This document shows positions 1,197 to 33,481 of a DNA stretch of 64,000 bases, piece by piece. Below the pieces are notes generated by a model. That model was not told the origin of the DNA. It saw only the letters and a list, made by a program, of their open reading frames with translations, and did not search any database. The position numbers and the translations under genes were made by a program. Where the stretch lies: sequence record NC_134264.1. One strand, given 5' to 3'. Every line of letters starts with the position of its first letter. The stretch's first letter is position 1. Source of the stretch: Escherichia phage Lindwurm.

Positions 1197-1589
1197 TCAT
1201 TCATCATTTAATCCCGGAACATAGATCCCAACACGGTTTAATTGTTCTTTAGCTTCTTTGAGAATATCTGGAGTGTACTCCCAAATATCATCTTCCACCT
1301 GTAAAAGATGGGGCGAACAACCATCATCCGGCACACGACATATGGCCAAACCACGTGGATGGAACAAAGAGAAGTTTAGGGCAACAATCAAGCCCATAGC
1401 AGACAATTCATTCCAATCCAATTCCCATTCCCCCGCGTAGCCGGATAGGAAAACACCAACACAGGGATCATCTGTTTGCTGCTCAGGAAAAGTGAAGGAG
1501 GCTTGTCTTACCCCCAACCAACGTTGTAGCAGCTTCTCCGCACGTTTCACCAAACTAGGGTCAATCTGACGCCAATATACTTGTTCCAT
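1197..1589 (-). CDS. hypothetical protein, paralogue of adjacent 142-aa ORF
   Basis: 130-aa ORF; shares WxELDxMGL(I/V)xALN and G(I/Y)xxPGL blocks with 1599..2027. Confidence 0.55.
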   Translation of the reverse strand: MEQVYWRQIDPSLVKRAEKLLQRWLGVRQASFTFPEQQTDDPCVGVFLSGYAGEWELDWNELSAMGLIVALNFSLFHPRGLAICRVPDDGCSPHLLQVEDDIWEYTPDILKEAKEQLNRVGIYVPGLNDE

Positions 1590-1598
1590 TATGCCTCC

Positions 1599-2027
1599 TT
1601 AGGCAGTTAAACCTGGGATCATATACCCGAAACGTCGAAGTTTCTGAATCCCCTCATTTACTTCTTCCGGTGAGTAAGACCAACCATAACGTTCATTAAT
1701 CTGAAAACCAGGAGATTCACTAGTTTTATAGTTAACAACTAGGCGATGCTTAGCAGGCATAAACAGCTTATAGTTTAACGCAAAAACTAAGCCCATTTCG
1801 TCTAACTCTTTCCAGCCCACAATCTCTTCAAGATCCTCCTCTACCTGAACAATTAAACCAATACAGGGAGCCTCATCAATATCATCTTTAAAAGCAAAGG
1901 AGATTTCGTTATTCTCACACCATATTTTCAAAGAGTTAATAGCCTCATTATACAGGCTAGCCGGGAGAGTACGCCAAAAGTTAACTAAAATTGGGTTAGC
2001 TTCTTTAGAGAATACATTATTGAACAT
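1599..2027 (-). CDS. hypothetical protein, paralogue of adjacent 130-aa ORF
   Basis: 142-aa ORF, tandem with and similar to 1197..1589. Confidence 0.55.
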   Translation of the reverse strand: MFNNVFSKEANPILVNFWRTLPASLYNEAINSLKIWCENNEISFAFKDDIDEAPCIGLIVQVEEDLEEIVGWKELDEMGLVFALNYKLFMPAKHRLVVNYKTSESPGFQINERYGWSYSPEEVNEGIQKLRRFGYMIPGLTA

Positions 2028-2029
2028 AT

Positions 2030-2542
2030 TTACACCTTAAATTGTTGCAAGGATTTACACATTTCAAGATTTGGGCTAAATTCTAGCATATAGCTAACAG
2101 CTTTTAAATCTTGAAGATTTATCCCAGTCCTACCGTTGACTATAACCGTTGGATACTGATACATCATAGCACCCGCATCATCAAGCACACACCAATGTTT
2201 GAGCTTATGCTTTTCAACGAAGCGAAGAACAGAATTACCCCTAGATAATCCACCCCCAGTAAAATCCGTTGTACCAAGAAAACGATCGATAAGACCTAAT
2301 CCGGTCATAATCTGAATGTTCTCCATCTCATTTCTGACAGAGAACCAAGATGATACTCCAACAATCATTATTGGAGAAGGACGAATAAAGTCCTGAAAAG
2401 CCTTGAGAAGCGGTTTGAAAACCCAATCACTTCCAAAGAAAATCTTTTCATCATCAGGCGCATGATATTGGGAGATGCTCGAATTGAGCACCCCATCAAT
2501 GTCTAGAAAAATAATTGGAGTATTACTTATTTCCTGACACAT
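2030..2542 (-). CDS. HAD-superfamily phosphatase-like protein
   Basis: N-terminal FLDIDGVL (DxDGx) motif typical of HAD hydrolases. Confidence 0.55.
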   Translation of the reverse strand: MCQEISNTPIIFLDIDGVLNSSISQYHAPDDEKIFFGSDWVFKPLLKAFQDFIRPSPIMIVGVSSWFSVRNEMENIQIMTGLGLIDRFLGTTDFTGGGLSRGNSVLRFVEKHKLKHWCVLDDAGAMMYQYPTVIVNGRTGINLQDLKAVSYMLEFSPNLEMCKSLQQFKV

Positions 2543-3338
2543 AAGGTCTACCCTCTAAATGAGCTTCTACACGAGCAATAAAATCAGGATCACTGAAAGC
2601 ATCTACCGCACCTTTACTCCAGTAAGGGATACCGCGTTCTTCCAGCTGGTACATCTCACTACGAGTCATACCTTGATAGCTCGGTTCCGCCGCTAGGGCA
2701 CTATCATAGTAGTTAACAACCATTAGCTTGGCAGCAGTCAAATTAAGAACAGGAAATAATTCCCAGTAGAAGTTAATTACTTGGTTAGAGCAACCAACCA
2801 CAACGATCATATCTTGACTGGTAATACCATCAAAAACATTGTACATTTCTGCGTACGCTGGAGCATGCTCCCCAAAAAAGATTACATTAGGTTTAACCCA
2901 TTTATAATCGTCTGGATCAATAGAATTGTACCCTACATCAATAATCCGTTTATTGCTACTATTGTAGCTATCAGCTACAACAACCTCTTTTAAATATCCG
3001 TGAATGTGCAGAATGTCACTATGTGGAACGCCAGCACGCTCAATAAGGTCATCAACGTTGGTAGTCAAGTTTACTACTTGGCCTGGATATTGTTTATACC
3101 ATTCACCAATACGCAAATGCGCAAGATTGGGTTCAACAGTTTTTAGCTCTTCACGACGCTTGTTGTAAAACATATGGGTTTTATGATAAAAATTACCACG
3201 AAAGGCATGAATATTACATACCTCTTCTAGATCATAATCATCCCACAATGCTTTACCGCTAGCAGTATCAGTACGAAAAGCTCGTACACCACTTTCAACA
3301 CTCAAACCTGCACCACTAATAATAATTAATCTACGCAT
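2523..3338 (-). CDS. Sir2-family (sirtuin-like) NAD-dependent enzyme
   Basis: GAGLSVESGVRAFR, TTNVDDLIERAG, HIHG, PNVIFFGE and VVVGCS blocks match sirtuin core; no CxxC zinc ribbon. Confidence 0.7.
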   Translation of the reverse strand: MRRLIIISGAGLSVESGVRAFRTDTASGKALWDDYDLEEVCNIHAFRGNFYHKTHMFYNKRREELKTVEPNLAHLRIGEWYKQYPGQVVNLTTNVDDLIERAGVPHSDILHIHGYLKEVVVADSYNSSNKRIIDVGYNSIDPDDYKWVKPNVIFFGEHAPAYAEMYNVFDGITSQDMIVVVGCSNQVINFYWELFPVLNLTAAKLMVVNYYDSALAAEPSYQGMTRSEMYQLEERGIPYWSKGAVDAFSDPDFIARVEAHLEGRPYVSGNK

Positions 3339-3552: not shown

Positions 3553-3745
3553 AAAGTTTCTCCTCTAGTTCCATAACACGATTTTCATAAGAGGCACGCA
3601 ACTTTTCAATTGCCAGCGCACGCACTGTAACCTCATTAGAATTAATAGCTAATTGGGCCAGATCTTCTGTTTCCATACGTCCGTTGTAAATTAAGCGATA
3701 TTTAAGGTGTTTCACATTCTTAGTCATTATTAAACTCCACTGCAA
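3521..3745 (-). CDS. hypothetical protein
   Basis: 74-aa ORF in minus-strand operon. Confidence 0.4.
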   Translation of the reverse strand: MQWSLIMTKNVKHLKYRLIYNGRMETEDLAQLAINSNEVTVRALAIEKLRASYENRVMELEEKLYGILEADATR

Positions 3746-4100
3746 CTGTTTCTAGGTCTTCATCAGAAAAATTAGAGTATACATCTTTAAGGTATTGTTT
3801 AATGTCTTCAGTAATATCTTCGTATCCCTCAGGAATACGTTGGTATACTTTTAGTACTCTATTATAAACAAATTCAATATCATACTTTATTTCACCCTCA
3901 TCCTCGTCAAACAAGCAATCTGAGTTATACGGTGATACATCTAGATTTGTTTCTACCCAATCACCAATAATTGATGGATATCCAATACCCTCTAGATGGG
4001 AATAATCTCCAGTAGATGCAAAAATAGCTTCTCTAAGATCGTCTACGCCAAGATGGAAACCACCACATGTAGACTCAACTATATAGGGCTTTAATTCCAT
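3720..4100 (-). CDS. hypothetical acidic protein
   Basis: 126-aa ORF immediately downstream of nrdD; no radical-SAM CxxxCxxC so not NrdG. Confidence 0.45.
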   Translation of the reverse strand: MELKPYIVESTCGGFHLGVDDLREAIFASTGDYSHLEGIGYPSIIGDWVETNLDVSPYNSDCLFDEDEGEIKYDIEFVYNRVLKVYQRIPEGYEDITEDIKQYLKDVYSNFSDEDLETVAVEFNND

Positions 4101-4199: not shown

Positions 4200-6074
4200 T
4201 TATTTAGCTCGAATATCCTGATGTTTCACTCTGCCCATCACCTCGTGCTGTTTACCGGGGTTAAATGGACGAGCACCCGGATTTCCAAGATACCCACAAA
4301 CTCGACGAGTTACTTCAAGAGTTTCGGGGTCATGATTACCACAGATAGGGCACTTAAATCCATCTTCGGATGCTATTGTTTCACCTAAGAATCCACATTT
4401 ACCACAAGAATCCACCGGAGTATTAATACCGAAGTAATGAACCTTACTAGCAGCATAATTAATAACCCATTCCAATGCATCTGGGAATCGTTTCATATCC
4501 GGTAATTCTACATAGGAAATACACCCACCAGAAGCAATCGGAGTAAAGTTAGATTCATAATCAAATTTGACGTTAGGAGCAACTTTACGTTCCACATCAA
4601 GGTGGTGAGAGTTAGTGTAGTATCCTTTGGACAGAATATCTTCATGCTCCGGGAAATATTCACGGTCTAGACGACAAAAACGGTCACATAGGGATTCTGA
4701 TGGTGTAGCATACAGGCTATAACCTAACTTAGTCTCTTCCTTCTTTTGATCGACCCTATCTCGCATGTACTGCAATACACGCTGAACAAACTTGATGCAG
4801 GTCTCGGACATTGTATCTACATCTTTGCCAAACATGAACTGTAGCATTTCATGGCAACCAATATACCCTAGAGATACAGAAGCACGGTTATAGAAATGAT
4901 CGAATACATATTCATCAGGCCCCAAGCGTAACCCAAAGGCTCCTGACATATAGAGGATGGGTGCAGCTTTAGCTTGAATGTATTTTAAGCGATCAACTCT
5001 CCACTCCAACGCTTTTAATGCTGTATCCACACGTAGCTCAAGCAAATCAAAGAATAGGTCAATATTTCCCTCAGCTTCGATAGCAATTCTAGGCAAGTTT
5101 ACAGAAACAACACCTAAGTTATTACGACCGGCAGTTTCACCATCTTCTGTAGCAGCTAGGAATGAACGACAGCCCATAGAAACTTTATAGTCTCCAGTAA
5201 CTTCTACAACCTTGTCATAACTGATATAATCTGGATACATACGTTCAGCAGTACATTTCATAGCTAATTTCTTGATGTCATAATTAACATCTCCTGGTTT
5301 CATATTTACGCCATCACGAAGTACAAATACCAGTTTCGGGAAGATAGCTGTACGTTTATTGATACCTAAACCATCCATGCGTACTTTCAGTATTGCCCTC
5401 TGTACTAGACGTGCTTCCCAAGAAGTTCCTAGACCAAAACCAAAGGTAATAAATGGACTCTGACCATTAGAGTTGAACATGGTATTGATTTCATATTCTA
5501 AACCCTGACAAGCGTCATAGACTTCTTTTTCAGTCATCTCCGTAGCCATTACGGATGCTTTGGCTTCATCCTTAGTCCAACGTTTTGCAAACGCATGATT
5601 TTTATCATAGGATTTACGAACATAAGGGGCTAATACTTCATCAAGGCGATCTACAGAAGTACCACCATACTGATGGGAGCTAACCTGAGTGATAATCTGA
5701 GCAGTAATAGCCGCCGCAGTAGTAATAGAGTTTGGAGTGCTAATTTCAGCATTACCAACCTTCATACCATTCTTCAACATATCTTCCAGAGCTACCAGAC
5801 AACAGTTAGTCATGCCTAATGCAGCATAATCAGCATCATGGAAATGAATATCCCCAATCATATGAGCATTTCGAATCTGAATTGGCATTTCTTCTAGAAT
5901 CAGATACTTACTCAATTCACCTGCAAGCATATCCCTTTGTGTAGGGAAACGTTCTGAGGGTTTATTGGCATTATTAAATAGCAGCTCTTCATCTGCTGAC
6001 CCTTCGATAATCTCTTTGCAGTTTCTAATTAACGCCTGCATTTCTTTATATTTTAGTTCTTCGTTACGATTCAT
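4200..6074 (-). CDS. nrdD: anaerobic ribonucleoside-triphosphate reductase (class III)
   Basis: 624 aa; C-terminal glycyl-radical motif RVCGYLG and CxxC zinc site (CGKC...CPIC). Confidence 0.9.
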   Translation of the reverse strand: MNRNEELKYKEMQALIRNCKEIIEGSADEELLFNNANKPSERFPTQRDMLAGELSKYLILEEMPIQIRNAHMIGDIHFHDADYAALGMTNCCLVALEDMLKNGMKVGNAEISTPNSITTAAAITAQIITQVSSHQYGGTSVDRLDEVLAPYVRKSYDKNHAFAKRWTKDEAKASVMATEMTEKEVYDACQGLEYEINTMFNSNGQSPFITFGFGLGTSWEARLVQRAILKVRMDGLGINKRTAIFPKLVFVLRDGVNMKPGDVNYDIKKLAMKCTAERMYPDYISYDKVVEVTGDYKVSMGCRSFLAATEDGETAGRNNLGVVSVNLPRIAIEAEGNIDLFFDLLELRVDTALKALEWRVDRLKYIQAKAAPILYMSGAFGLRLGPDEYVFDHFYNRASVSLGYIGCHEMLQFMFGKDVDTMSETCIKFVQRVLQYMRDRVDQKKEETKLGYSLYATPSESLCDRFCRLDREYFPEHEDILSKGYYTNSHHLDVERKVAPNVKFDYESNFTPIASGGCISYVELPDMKRFPDALEWVINYAASKVHYFGINTPVDSCGKCGFLGETIASEDGFKCPICGNHDPETLEVTRRVCGYLGNPGARPFNPGKQHEVMGRVKHQDIRAK

Positions 6075-32683: not shown

Positions 32684-32725
32684 AGAATAAAAAGCTGAGC
32701 CAAATTCTAACATCGGGGAGATCTA

Positions 32726-33094
32726 ATGAAAGCATATCAAAATCTTAAATCTGGCGTAATTAACCTTGTTCATGAAAATCAGATTATTCAGCTATACTCC
32801 GACAACGGTGAACTTAAACAGAAAGTTCTAGTTGAAGATCTAGAAGGTATCACACCGCAATTCGATCCTGAATCCTTCCGTGAAGTTAAGGTGGAAGTCG
32901 TCCCTCAAATCGAAGGTGGTCAGCACCTAAATGTCAATGTGTTAAGCCGTGATCAGCTTTTGGATGCGCAGAAACATCCTGAAAAATATCCTCAGTTGAC
33001 CATCCGTGTCTCTGGCTACGCTGTTCGATTTAATGCACTGACTCGTGAACAACAGAACGACGTTATTAGTCGTACATTTACTCAGGCAATGTAA
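32726..33094 (+). CDS. autonomous glycyl-radical cofactor (GrcA/YfiD-like)
   Basis: [11 protein letters not shown] and [27 protein letters not shown] match the GrcA glycyl-radical domain. Confidence 0.75.
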
Positions 33095-33175: not shown

Positions 33176-33481
33176 GTGGATCGAGCATTAAGACGCCATC
33201 ACCGGCAACGTGTGAAGAACAACCGTAAGAAGTATTGGACAGTCTTTCCACATGAAGAAAGCCCTAAGCGGTTAGGTATTATCACTACTACTCCTTGCAT
33301 CTGTTCTTGTTGGATGTGTGGGAACCCTCGCAAATATTATAAGAATAGTAAAGCAGGTATGAAAACCTCGGAGATCAGGAAAATGGAAGCGATGATTGCG
33401 GACATCACCTATACTGGTGGTATTTCAAATGATGAATTTGATGGCTTCGTAGCGTTCGAAGATGAACGCCCCGATCTGTAA
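33176..33481 (+). CDS. Cys-rich hypothetical protein
   Basis: 101 aa with CICSCWMCGNP cluster. Confidence 0.45.
   Translation: MDRALRRHHRQRVKNNRKKYWTVFPHEESPKRLGIITTTPCICSCWMCGNPRKYYKNSKAGMKTSEIRKMEAMIADITYTGGISNDEFDGFVAFEDERPDL

What the first reader, a model, noticed from the sequence alone, without database searches (positions are those of the whole stretch)
32726..33094. GrcA/YfiD-like glycyl-radical spare-part protein
The 122-aa product carries the glycyl-radical domain signature ([11 protein letters not shown]...[27 protein letters not shown]) of the autonomous glycyl radical cofactor. The phage has nrdD (4200-6074) but no nrdG activase in this window, so this protein may repair or substitute a damaged glycyl-radical domain, with activation relying on the host.
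Basis: partly seen in the sequence, partly recalled or inferred. Interest (0 to 1): 0.55.

Follow-up and report, generated by a model that had tools for sequence, protein, structure and literature searches.

The report
Phage copy of PFL spare-part protein
This T5-like phage carries a small, well-conserved gene for a GrcA/YfiD-type "spare part" that most likely repairs the host's oxygen-damaged pyruvate formate-lyase; the gene is real but already annotated, and its T4 counterpart was shown to do this in 2001.

Summary
Window 32726..33094 (+) is a 122-aa ORF whose last 62 residues form a PFL-type glycyl-radical domain (Pfam Gly_radical 4e-18; E. coli GrcA structure 6OWR 1.6e-30; PflB C-terminus 6e-27). 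The radical glycine is G97, in [11 protein letters not shown].

The window is a T5-like phage (Tequintavirus). The identical protein is annotated "autonomous glycyl radical cofactor" in phage phiP4. T5 has it as T5.056. T4 has vs.6/Y06I, which has been shown biochemically to rescue O2-cleaved PFL.

The gene is under strong purifying selection (dN/dS 0.01-0.21). About 435 T5-like and more than 1,000 T4-like phage records carry it.

The implied target is wrong. The domain is PFL-type and shows no similarity to the phage NrdD (E = 17). The target is therefore host PflB/TdcE and the activase host PflA.

An indirect link to NrdD remains plausible. PFL makes formate, the reductant of E. coli-type class III reductases. 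In RaK2-like and Aeromonas phages the grcA-like gene sits inside the nrdD-nrdG operon.

Verdict: already known, low interest.

The parts
32715..32720 (+). Shine-Dalgarno GGGGAG, 5 nt upstream of the ATG
   Evidence: read directly from the sequence
32726..33094 (+). CDS of the 122-aa GrcA/Y06I-type autonomous glycyl-radical protein (orthologue of T5.056; stop codon included)
   Evidence: Identical protein annotated 'autonomous glycyl radical cofactor' in phiP4. T5.056. dN/dS 0.01-0.21.
32726..32905 (+). N-terminal half (aa 1-60). Phage-type and only weakly alignable to the YfiD N-terminus. By analogy with YfiD it is the part that helps dock on cleaved PFL.
   Evidence: The TIGR04365 match starts at aa 50. 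MKAYQ..L start shared with T4-like proteins. N-half dN/dS 0.03-0.41. No full-length match among the best bacterial hits. YfiD residues 1-60 matter for cPFL binding (PMC8683613).
32906..33091 (+). C-terminal PFL-type glycyl-radical domain (aa 61-122, equivalent to PflB 698-759)
   Evidence: Best E. coli DNA match is the 3' end of pflB at 77-78%.
33014..33016 (+). Codon GGC for Gly97 in RVSGYAV, the predicted radical site (equivalent to PflB G734 and YfiD G102)
   Evidence: sequence; invariant column in alignments A1 and A2
4200..6074 (-). Context, not part of the spare-part gene: phage nrdD. It is a class III ribonucleotide reductase without an ATP-cone and has a formate-type active site (C91, M300, C302, G594). 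It is a possible downstream beneficiary of PFL-derived formate.

Best explanation
[quoted passage not shown] When oxygen hits active host pyruvate formate-lyase, the PflB chain is cut at the radical glycine G734 and the enzyme dies. The 122-aa phage protein would dock on the cleaved enzyme, with its N-terminal half helping binding. Its C-terminal 62 residues would take the place of PflB 698-759. Host PFL-activating enzyme (PflA) would then put a new radical on Gly97 and activity would return. A virulent T5-like phage is reported to shut down host gene expression (background knowledge, not tested here). A 14-kDa phage-made spare part would then be a cheap way to keep the host's anaerobic pyruvate-to-acetyl-CoA-plus-formate flux running through micro-oxic episodes of the infection. 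What is shown here: the homology, the intact radical motif, conservation and selection, and the absence of a phage activase. What is inferred from E. coli YfiD and T4 Y06I biochemistry: docking, activation by PflA and rescue.
For: The C-terminal 62 aa are 48-50/62 identical to GrcA, PflB and TdcE. Every residue that GrcA, PflB and TdcE share is kept except one conservative E76D change. Best PDB hits are GrcA 6OWR (1.6e-30) and PflB (6e-27). The protein matches the phage family PHROG 1209 over its full length (1.2e-47) and is 52.7% identical over its full length to T4 vs.6. That T4 gene is the only GrcA-like gene in T4 records. T4 Y06I and E. coli YfiD are the two biochemically validated PFL spare parts, activated by PFL-AE (PMC8683613; PMC13450708). 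Purifying selection is strong: dN/dS 0.01-0.21 against 29 distinct T5-like orthologues, and about 0 in the C-terminal half. About 435 phage records carry it at >=80% aa identity and 1,583 records have some match. It has a good RBS and is co-oriented with the early tRNA cluster. No phage activase exists in the window or in phiP4, so a host activase is required.
Against: No experiment exists on any T5-type protein. It scores 121.1 bits on NCBIfam TIGR04365, below the equivalog cutoff of 170, and only aa 50-122 align. This weighs little, because validated T4 Y06I also fails the cutoff at 153.3 bits. The N-terminal half is important for YfiD binding to cleaved PFL, yet here it is divergent and carries a 4-aa deletion relative to T4 and E. 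coli. T4 Y06I's C-terminal domain is 60/62 identical to E. coli GrcA, so the T4 experiment says little about a domain as diverged as this one. Single-sequence AlphaFold gave no usable model.
Confidence: 0.8

Rival explanations
1. Same molecular mechanism (rescue of host PFL), but the selected benefit is formate for the phage's own class III ribonucleotide reductase rather than energy. PFL is the main source of formate. Formate is the reductant of E. coli/T4-type NrdD. Keeping PFL alive would therefore keep anaerobic dNTP synthesis for phage DNA going.
For: Formate is the reductant of most characterised class III RNRs, including E. coli's (PMC4493059, citing Mulliez 1995). The window's NrdD is 54% identical to E. 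coli NrdD and keeps the equivalents of C175, M382, C384 and G681. In other phage lineages the grcA-like gene lies inside the anaerobic RNR operon. In Klebsiella phage RaK2 and relatives the order is nrdD - grcA-like - orf - nrdG (L044-L046; 11 records share the block). In Aeromonas phage AsFcp_4 and L067 the order is nrdD-nrdG-grcA-like-nrdC-nrdH (12 records). Organism counts are compatible with GrcA-carrying phages being a subset of NrdD-carrying phages (1,583 against 2,907 records).
Against: In this window the two genes are 26.6 kb apart and on opposite strands. In the T4-like and other IMG/VR loci examined, no NrdD or NrdG homologue lies within 6 kb of the grcA-like gene. Synteny could simply reflect co-regulation of anaerobic genes. 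Per-genome co-occurrence was not computed. No paper in the searched library makes or tests this link.
Confidence: 0.3
2. The protein is a spare or substitute radical domain for the phage's own NrdD, compensating for the missing nrdG. This is the link the first reader implied.
For: Both proteins are glycyl-radical proteins in one genome that has no activase. The synteny with nrdDG in other phages also fits.
Against: There is no detectable similarity between the protein and the phage NrdD (BLASTP E = 17). NrdD's radical loop is RRVCGYLG, preceded by a Cys-rich CxxC...CxxC segment, which the small protein lacks. Even the copies embedded in nrdDG operons carry the PFL-type [12 protein letters not shown] loop. 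Spare parts have so far been found only for formate-lyases (PMC13450708). A spare radical domain would not replace an activase in any case.
Confidence: 0.03
3. The protein is a decoy. It titrates host PflA or caps host PFL so as to shut down or redirect host fermentation, rather than repair it.
For: The N-terminal half is divergent relative to YfiD. Phages often inhibit host metabolism.
Against: The radical glycine and the whole loop are strictly conserved, and the C-terminal half has dN/dS of about 0. That is not expected for a mere binder. The T4 homologue restores rather than inhibits PFL activity.
Confidence: 0.05
4. The ORF is a functionless remnant of a captured pflB or tdcE 3' end.
For: The best E. 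coli DNA match is the 3' end of pflB at 77-78% identity. Many GenBank records call it 'pyruvate formate-lyase'.
Against: The ORF is intact in all 34 T5-like copies examined, with dN/dS 0.01-0.21. It has a conserved phage-specific N-terminal half and an RBS. It is kept across Demerecviridae and Straboviridae.
Confidence: 0.02

Closest known systems
Bacteriophage T4 Y06I (gene vs.6)
   Same: Small stand-alone phage protein of 120 aa. It is 52.7% identical over the full length, shares the MKAYQ.L start, and has an identical [10 protein letters not shown] loop. It falls in the same PHROG 1209-type family. It is biochemically validated as a PFL spare part activated by PFL-AE.
   Different: T4's last ~180 nt are 95% identical to E. 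coli grcA (60/62 aa) and have host-like GC, which looks like a recent conversion by the host gene. The T5-type C-terminal domain is an older, diverged copy at 70-76% DNA identity to grcA and pflB. The N-terminal halves are only weakly similar and differ by several indels. T4 also encodes its own NrdG; this phage encodes no activase.
E. coli GrcA / YfiD (b2579; PDB 6OWR)
   Same: Size (127 against 122 aa), architecture (N-terminal half plus C-terminal PFL-like radical domain) and 48/62 identity in the domain. Weak N-terminal correspondences remain, such as REV.VEV.P and the ..V..ED segment.
   Different: The N-terminal 50 residues do not match the GrcA profile, and the score is below the NCBIfam equivalog cutoff. 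This gene is phage-encoded and lies in an early tRNA cluster.
C-termini of PflB (698-759) and TdcE
   Same: 49/62 identical to PflB and 50/62 to TdcE. From the radical Gly to the end, which is the piece lost on O2 cleavage, 24/26 match TdcE and 21/26 match PflB.
   Different: The protein covers only the last 62 of about 760 residues and has no catalytic Cys418/Cys419 barrel. The GenBank labels 'pyruvate formate-lyase' and '2-ketobutyrate formate-lyase' for this 122-aa protein are therefore misnomers.
T5.056 of bacteriophage T5 and its orthologues (DT57C_000049, phiP4 gp076)
   Same: Orthologue: 95% aa identity, the same 369-nt length, and the same position after tRNA-Ile/tRNA-Met and before the T5.055 and T5.054 homologues.
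   Different: Nothing substantive. Annotations range from 'putative acetyltransferase-related protein' to 'autonomous glycyl radical cofactor'.

Membership tests
GrcA/YfiD autonomous glycyl radical cofactor | Stand-alone protein of about 14 kDa, not the end of a full-length glycyl-radical enzyme | tested here: met
   122-aa ORF with its own RBS and start, bounded by stops. Stop-to-stop length is 127-151 aa in all T5-like loci.
GrcA/YfiD autonomous glycyl radical cofactor | C-terminal ~60 residues homologous to the PFL C-terminal glycyl-radical domain | tested here: met
   Pfam PF01228 4e-18. PflB 698-759 aligned to aa 61-122, 6e-27. 48-50/62 identity to GrcA, PflB and TdcE.
GrcA/YfiD autonomous glycyl radical cofactor | Radical glycine in the RVSGYAV loop | tested here: met
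   G97 in [11 protein letters not shown], invariant in alignments A1 and A2
GrcA/YfiD autonomous glycyl radical cofactor | Passes the curated NCBIfam equivalog model TIGR04365 (cutoff 170 bits) | tested here: not met
   121.1 bits, with only aa 50-122 aligned. Calibration: E. coli GrcA scores 234, but the experimentally validated T4 Y06I also fails at 153.3. The cutoff therefore separates bacterial GrcA from phage versions, not functional from non-functional proteins.
GrcA/YfiD autonomous glycyl radical cofactor | N-terminal ~60 residues that promote binding to cleaved PFL and activation | tested here: inconclusive
   A conserved, selected N-terminal half exists (dN/dS 0.03-0.41). Its similarity to YfiD 1-60 is weak and gapped. 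The role of YfiD 1-60 is taken from PMC8683613.
GrcA/YfiD autonomous glycyl radical cofactor | Glycyl radical installed by PFL-activating enzyme; restores activity to O2-cleaved PFL | not testable with these tools
   Needs EPR and enzyme assays. Shown only for YfiD and T4 Y06I.
Phage vs.6/Y06I-type proteins (PHROG 1209) | Full-length match to the phage family profile | tested here: met
   1.2e-47, aa 1-122 on profile positions 1-121 of 121. 52.7% identity at 100% coverage to T4.
Class III RNR (NrdD) glycyl-radical domain | Similarity to the NrdD C-terminus (RVCGYLG loop plus the preceding Cys-rich CxxC...CxxC segment) | tested here: not met
   BLASTP against the phage's own NrdD gives E = 17. 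Loop and Cys-rich segment are absent.
Pyruvate formate-lyase / 2-ketobutyrate formate-lyase (as labelled in many GenBank records) | Full ~760-aa barrel with the catalytic Cys418/Cys419 | tested here: not met
   TIGR01255 gives 85.5 bits against a cutoff of 994, and only profile positions 683-744 match.

The most novel reading that the evidence does not exclude
Phage GrcA-type genes may form one functional module with phage class III ribonucleotide reductase. By repairing host PFL they would secure formate, the reductant of formate-type NrdD, and so secure dNTP supply during infection in the fluctuating-oxygen gut. This would explain why the gene has been inserted into nrdD-nrdG operons in at least two unrelated phage lineages (RaK2-like jumbo phages and Aeromonas T4-like phages). 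It would also explain why the phages examined here that carry it also carry NrdD. In those operon-embedded cases the phage's own NrdG might even act as the activase.
Probability: 0.3. Interest if true: 0.5.

Novelty: already known. Interest (0 to 1): 0.2.

Why it matters
It is an example of a virulent phage carrying a repair part for a host enzyme rather than the enzyme itself. That strategy sustains fermentative energy and formate production in oxygen-fluctuating habitats such as the gut. The principle has been known since the T4 Y06I work of 2001, and this gene is already annotated in public T5-like genomes, so the finding adds little. Three modest additions come from this check. First, the target should be read as host PFL, not phage NrdD. 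Second, many database records mislabel the gene as a full formate-lyase. Third, recurrent synteny with nrdDG in other phages suggests a testable formate link between PFL repair and anaerobic dNTP synthesis.

Tried and rejected
1. NrdD as the target. Direct comparison with the phage NrdD found no similarity, so this was rejected.
2. A hidden phage activase. tblastn with E. coli PflA and NrdG against the window and the whole phiP4 genome found nothing better than about E = 0.5. The CxxxCxxC scan hit only two short Cys-rich ORFs unrelated to activases. Pfam on the ORFs around nrdD found Sir2, HAD_SAK_2 and DUF7415 but no radical-SAM domain.
3. An activase next to grcA in other phages. No PflA hit appeared in any of the 80 IMG/VR loci.
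4. Structure prediction. Single-sequence AlphaFold2 gave mean pLDDT 34.6, which is unusable, so no fold search was run. An alignment-based run would have needed the expensive protein-database search, which I judged unnecessary given 79% identity to solved PFL structures.
5. Literature. No paper in the searched library links GrcA to T5-like phages or to phage nrdD. Kammel & Sawers 2022 (PMC9112899) is not held.
6. A bacterial source of the T5-type N-terminal half. The genome scan returned only PFL C-termini covering roughly aa 40-122, mostly 63-122.
7. Promoter and terminator scan. Only consensus-level matches, nothing informative.

Full report
**1. What is in the sequence**

GGGGAG at 32715-32720 is a good ribosome-binding site, 5 nt before the start.

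The protein matches these references:
- Pfam Gly_radical: 4e-18, 66.3 bits against a cutoff of 22.2, covering aa 62-103.
- NCBIfam GrcA model TIGR04365: 3.3e-35.
- Phage family PHROG 1209: full length, 1.2e-47.
- Solved structures: E. coli GrcA 6OWR at 1.6e-30, and the last 62 residues of pyruvate formate-lyase (PflB 698-759) at 6e-27.

The radical glycine is G97 (codon 33014-33016) in [11 protein letters not shown].

**2. What genome this is**

The 2 kb around the gene is 99.9% identical to Escherichia phage phiP4 (Demerecviridae, Tequintavirus). There the identical protein is annotated "autonomous glycyl radical cofactor". Over the whole window, identity to phiP4 is 86-98% with several indels, so this is a mosaic T5-like phage and not phiP4 itself.

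In T5 the orthologue is T5.056, 95% identical, annotated through the InterPro glycine-radical domain. It sits at the same place, after tRNA-Ile and tRNA-Met at the end of the early tRNA cluster and before T5.055 and T5.054. DT57C annotates it as putative GrcA.

A tblastn search finds a relative in 1,583 phage records. About 435 are at >=80% identity (T5-like phages of Escherichia and Salmonella). More than 1,000 are at about 50-55% over the full length (T4-like phages), where the gene is vs.6.

**3. Is it a working gene?**

All 34 T5-like copies I could extract have an intact 369-nt ORF. Against 29 distinct orthologous sequences, dN/dS is 0.01-0.21. It is essentially 0 in the C-terminal half and 0.03-0.41 in the N-terminal half. 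Both halves are therefore under purifying selection, and a dead pflB remnant is excluded.

**4. Which glycyl-radical enzyme does it resemble?**

The C-terminal 62 residues are identical to PflB at 49/62, to TdcE at 50/62 and to E. coli GrcA at 48/62. From the radical Gly to the end, which is the piece PFL loses on oxygen cleavage, it matches TdcE at 24/26 and PflB at 21/26. The only position where GrcA, PflB and TdcE agree and this protein differs is a conservative E76D. The best E. coli DNA match in all 5,426 genomes is the 3' end of pflB at 77-78%.

The phage's own NrdD (4200-6074, minus strand; Pfam NRDD 5e-172) has the loop RRVCGYLG preceded by a Cys-rich CxxC...CxxC segment. It shows no similarity to the small protein (BLASTP E = 17). 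The domain is therefore a PFL part, not an NrdD part.

**5. Activases**

tblastn with E. coli PflA and NrdG finds nothing in the window or in the complete phiP4 genome (best E about 0.5). No plausible radical-SAM CxxxCxxC ORF exists. The annotation of all 179 phiP4 features lists no activase. Both phage glycyl-radical proteins must use host activases. By homology these would be NrdG for NrdD and PflA for the GrcA-like protein.

**6. Mechanism (inferred)**

E. coli YfiD/GrcA and T4 Y06I are the only two validated spare-part proteins. PFL-AE installs the glycyl radical on them, and they form a complex with oxygen-cleaved PFL that regains activity (Wagner et al. 2001, as summarised in PMC8683613; PMC13450708).

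For YfiD, activation is efficient only in the presence of cleaved PFL. The disordered N-terminal 60 residues and PflB residues 696-733 both promote complex formation.

T4 records contain a single GrcA-like gene, vs.6, so I take Y06I to be that gene. The T5-type protein shares full-length homology with it, including the MKAYQ.L start.

I therefore conclude, at about 0.8 confidence, that this protein repairs host PflB (and possibly TdcE) after oxygen damage and is activated by host PflA. T5-like phages are reported to shut off host expression (general knowledge, not tested here). A phage-made 14-kDa spare part would then be the economical way to keep pyruvate-to-acetyl-CoA-plus-formate flux going.

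**7. Caveats on membership**

- The protein fails the TIGR04365 equivalog cutoff (121.1 against 170), and only aa 50-122 align. E. coli GrcA scores 234, but validated T4 Y06I also fails at 153.3, so the cutoff separates bacterial from phage versions rather than functional from non-functional ones.
- The N-terminal half aligns only weakly with YfiD and has a 4-aa deletion relative to T4 and E. coli.
- A scan of one genome per 185,579 bacterial species returned only PFL C-termini (roughly aa 40-122, mostly 63-122). No full-length T5-type protein appeared, so the N-terminal half looks phage-specific.
- T4's C-terminal domain is almost identical to E. coli GrcA (60/62), so the T4 experiment is weaker support for this more diverged domain.

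**8. Is there any link to NrdD?**

There is no direct link, but two observations suggest a pathway link.

First, formate is the reductant of most characterised class III reductases, including E. coli's (PMC4493059). The window's NrdD is 54% identical to E. coli NrdD and keeps the equivalents of C175, M382, C384 and G681 (C91, M300, C302, G594). PFL is the enzyme that makes formate.

Second, in other phage lineages the grcA-like gene, still with the PFL-type loop, lies inside the anaerobic reductase operon:
- Klebsiella phage RaK2 and relatives: nrdD - grcA-like - orf - nrdG (L044-L046; 11 records share the block).
- Aeromonas phage AsFcp_4 and L067: nrdD-nrdG-grcA-like-nrdC-nrdH (12 records).

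NrdD is found in 2,907 phage records. The organism counts are compatible with GrcA carriers being a subset of NrdD carriers, but I could not compute per-genome co-occurrence. I found no paper that makes this link. I rate it at about 0.3.

**9. Verdict**

It is already annotated in public T5-like genomes and belongs to a phage family whose T4 member was characterised in 2001. Novelty: already known. Interest: low (0.2). The formate and nrdDG-synteny idea is the only part that might repay an experiment.

Noticed in passing
L005:4001-4360 (T4_ev151 vs.6) compared with L006:2067-2450 (E. coli grcA): T4 vs.6 is a mosaic. Its last ~180 nt are 95% identical to E. coli grcA (60/62 aa) with 48% GC. The 5' part is about 49% identical with T4-like 34.5% GC. 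This suggests recent gene conversion of the phage gene by the host gene. The T5-type gene shows no such tract (70-76% identity).
   Followed up: partly
L044:4039-7082 (Klebsiella phage RaK2), L045, L046, L067:3679-6351, L013:1-3453 (Aeromonas phage AsFcp_4): The grcA-like gene is embedded in or abuts the nrdD-nrdG operon in RaK2-like jumbo phages and in Aeromonas T4-like phages. In AsFcp_4 its start overlaps the end of nrdG and it is followed by nrdC and nrdH.
   Followed up: partly
window 33176-33481 (+): A 101-aa ORF lies just downstream of grcA, starts with GTG and carries a CICSCWMC cysteine cluster. It is the homologue of T5.055 (PHROG 4499, 9e-40; no Pfam match). phiP4 annotates only its last 99 nt, and DT57C annotates two alternative ORFs here. 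Function unknown.
   Followed up: partly
window 4200-6074 (-): The phage NrdD lacks the N-terminal ATP-cone of E. coli NrdD; alignment starts at E. coli residue ~113. The phage has no NrdG, so it presumably depends on host NrdG and escapes dATP/ATP-cone regulation.
   Followed up: partly
public records listed: The same 122-aa protein carries many labels across GenBank records: 'pyruvate formate-lyase', '2-ketobutyrate formate-lyase', 'putative acetyltransferase-like protein', 'putative formate-lyase' and 'hypothetical protein'. One record (CitS1) lists a 'ribonucleotide reductase subunit' among the features under the match. Only a minority call it GrcA.
   Followed up: no
window 3720-4100 (-): A 126-aa ORF (PHROG 11748, 5e-70, unknown function) lies directly downstream of nrdD. 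Its segment (window ~3721-4098) has no megablast match in phiP4, which has three small ORFs there instead.
   Followed up: no
window 1197-3338 (-): Downstream of nrdD lie a Sir2-family protein (2523-3338), a HAD_SAK_2 'Swiss Army Knife RNA repair' domain protein (2030-2542) and two DUF7415 proteins. phiP4 labels the last two 'tail tube protein', which looks like mis-annotation.
   Followed up: no
L070, L072, L073, L076-L078, L080-L082, L085 (IMG/VR contigs): Several short 'viral' contigs carry full or partial pflB that is 94-100% identical to E. coli PflB. They are probably host DNA in prophage flanks or mis-binned contigs, not phage GrcA genes.
   Followed up: no
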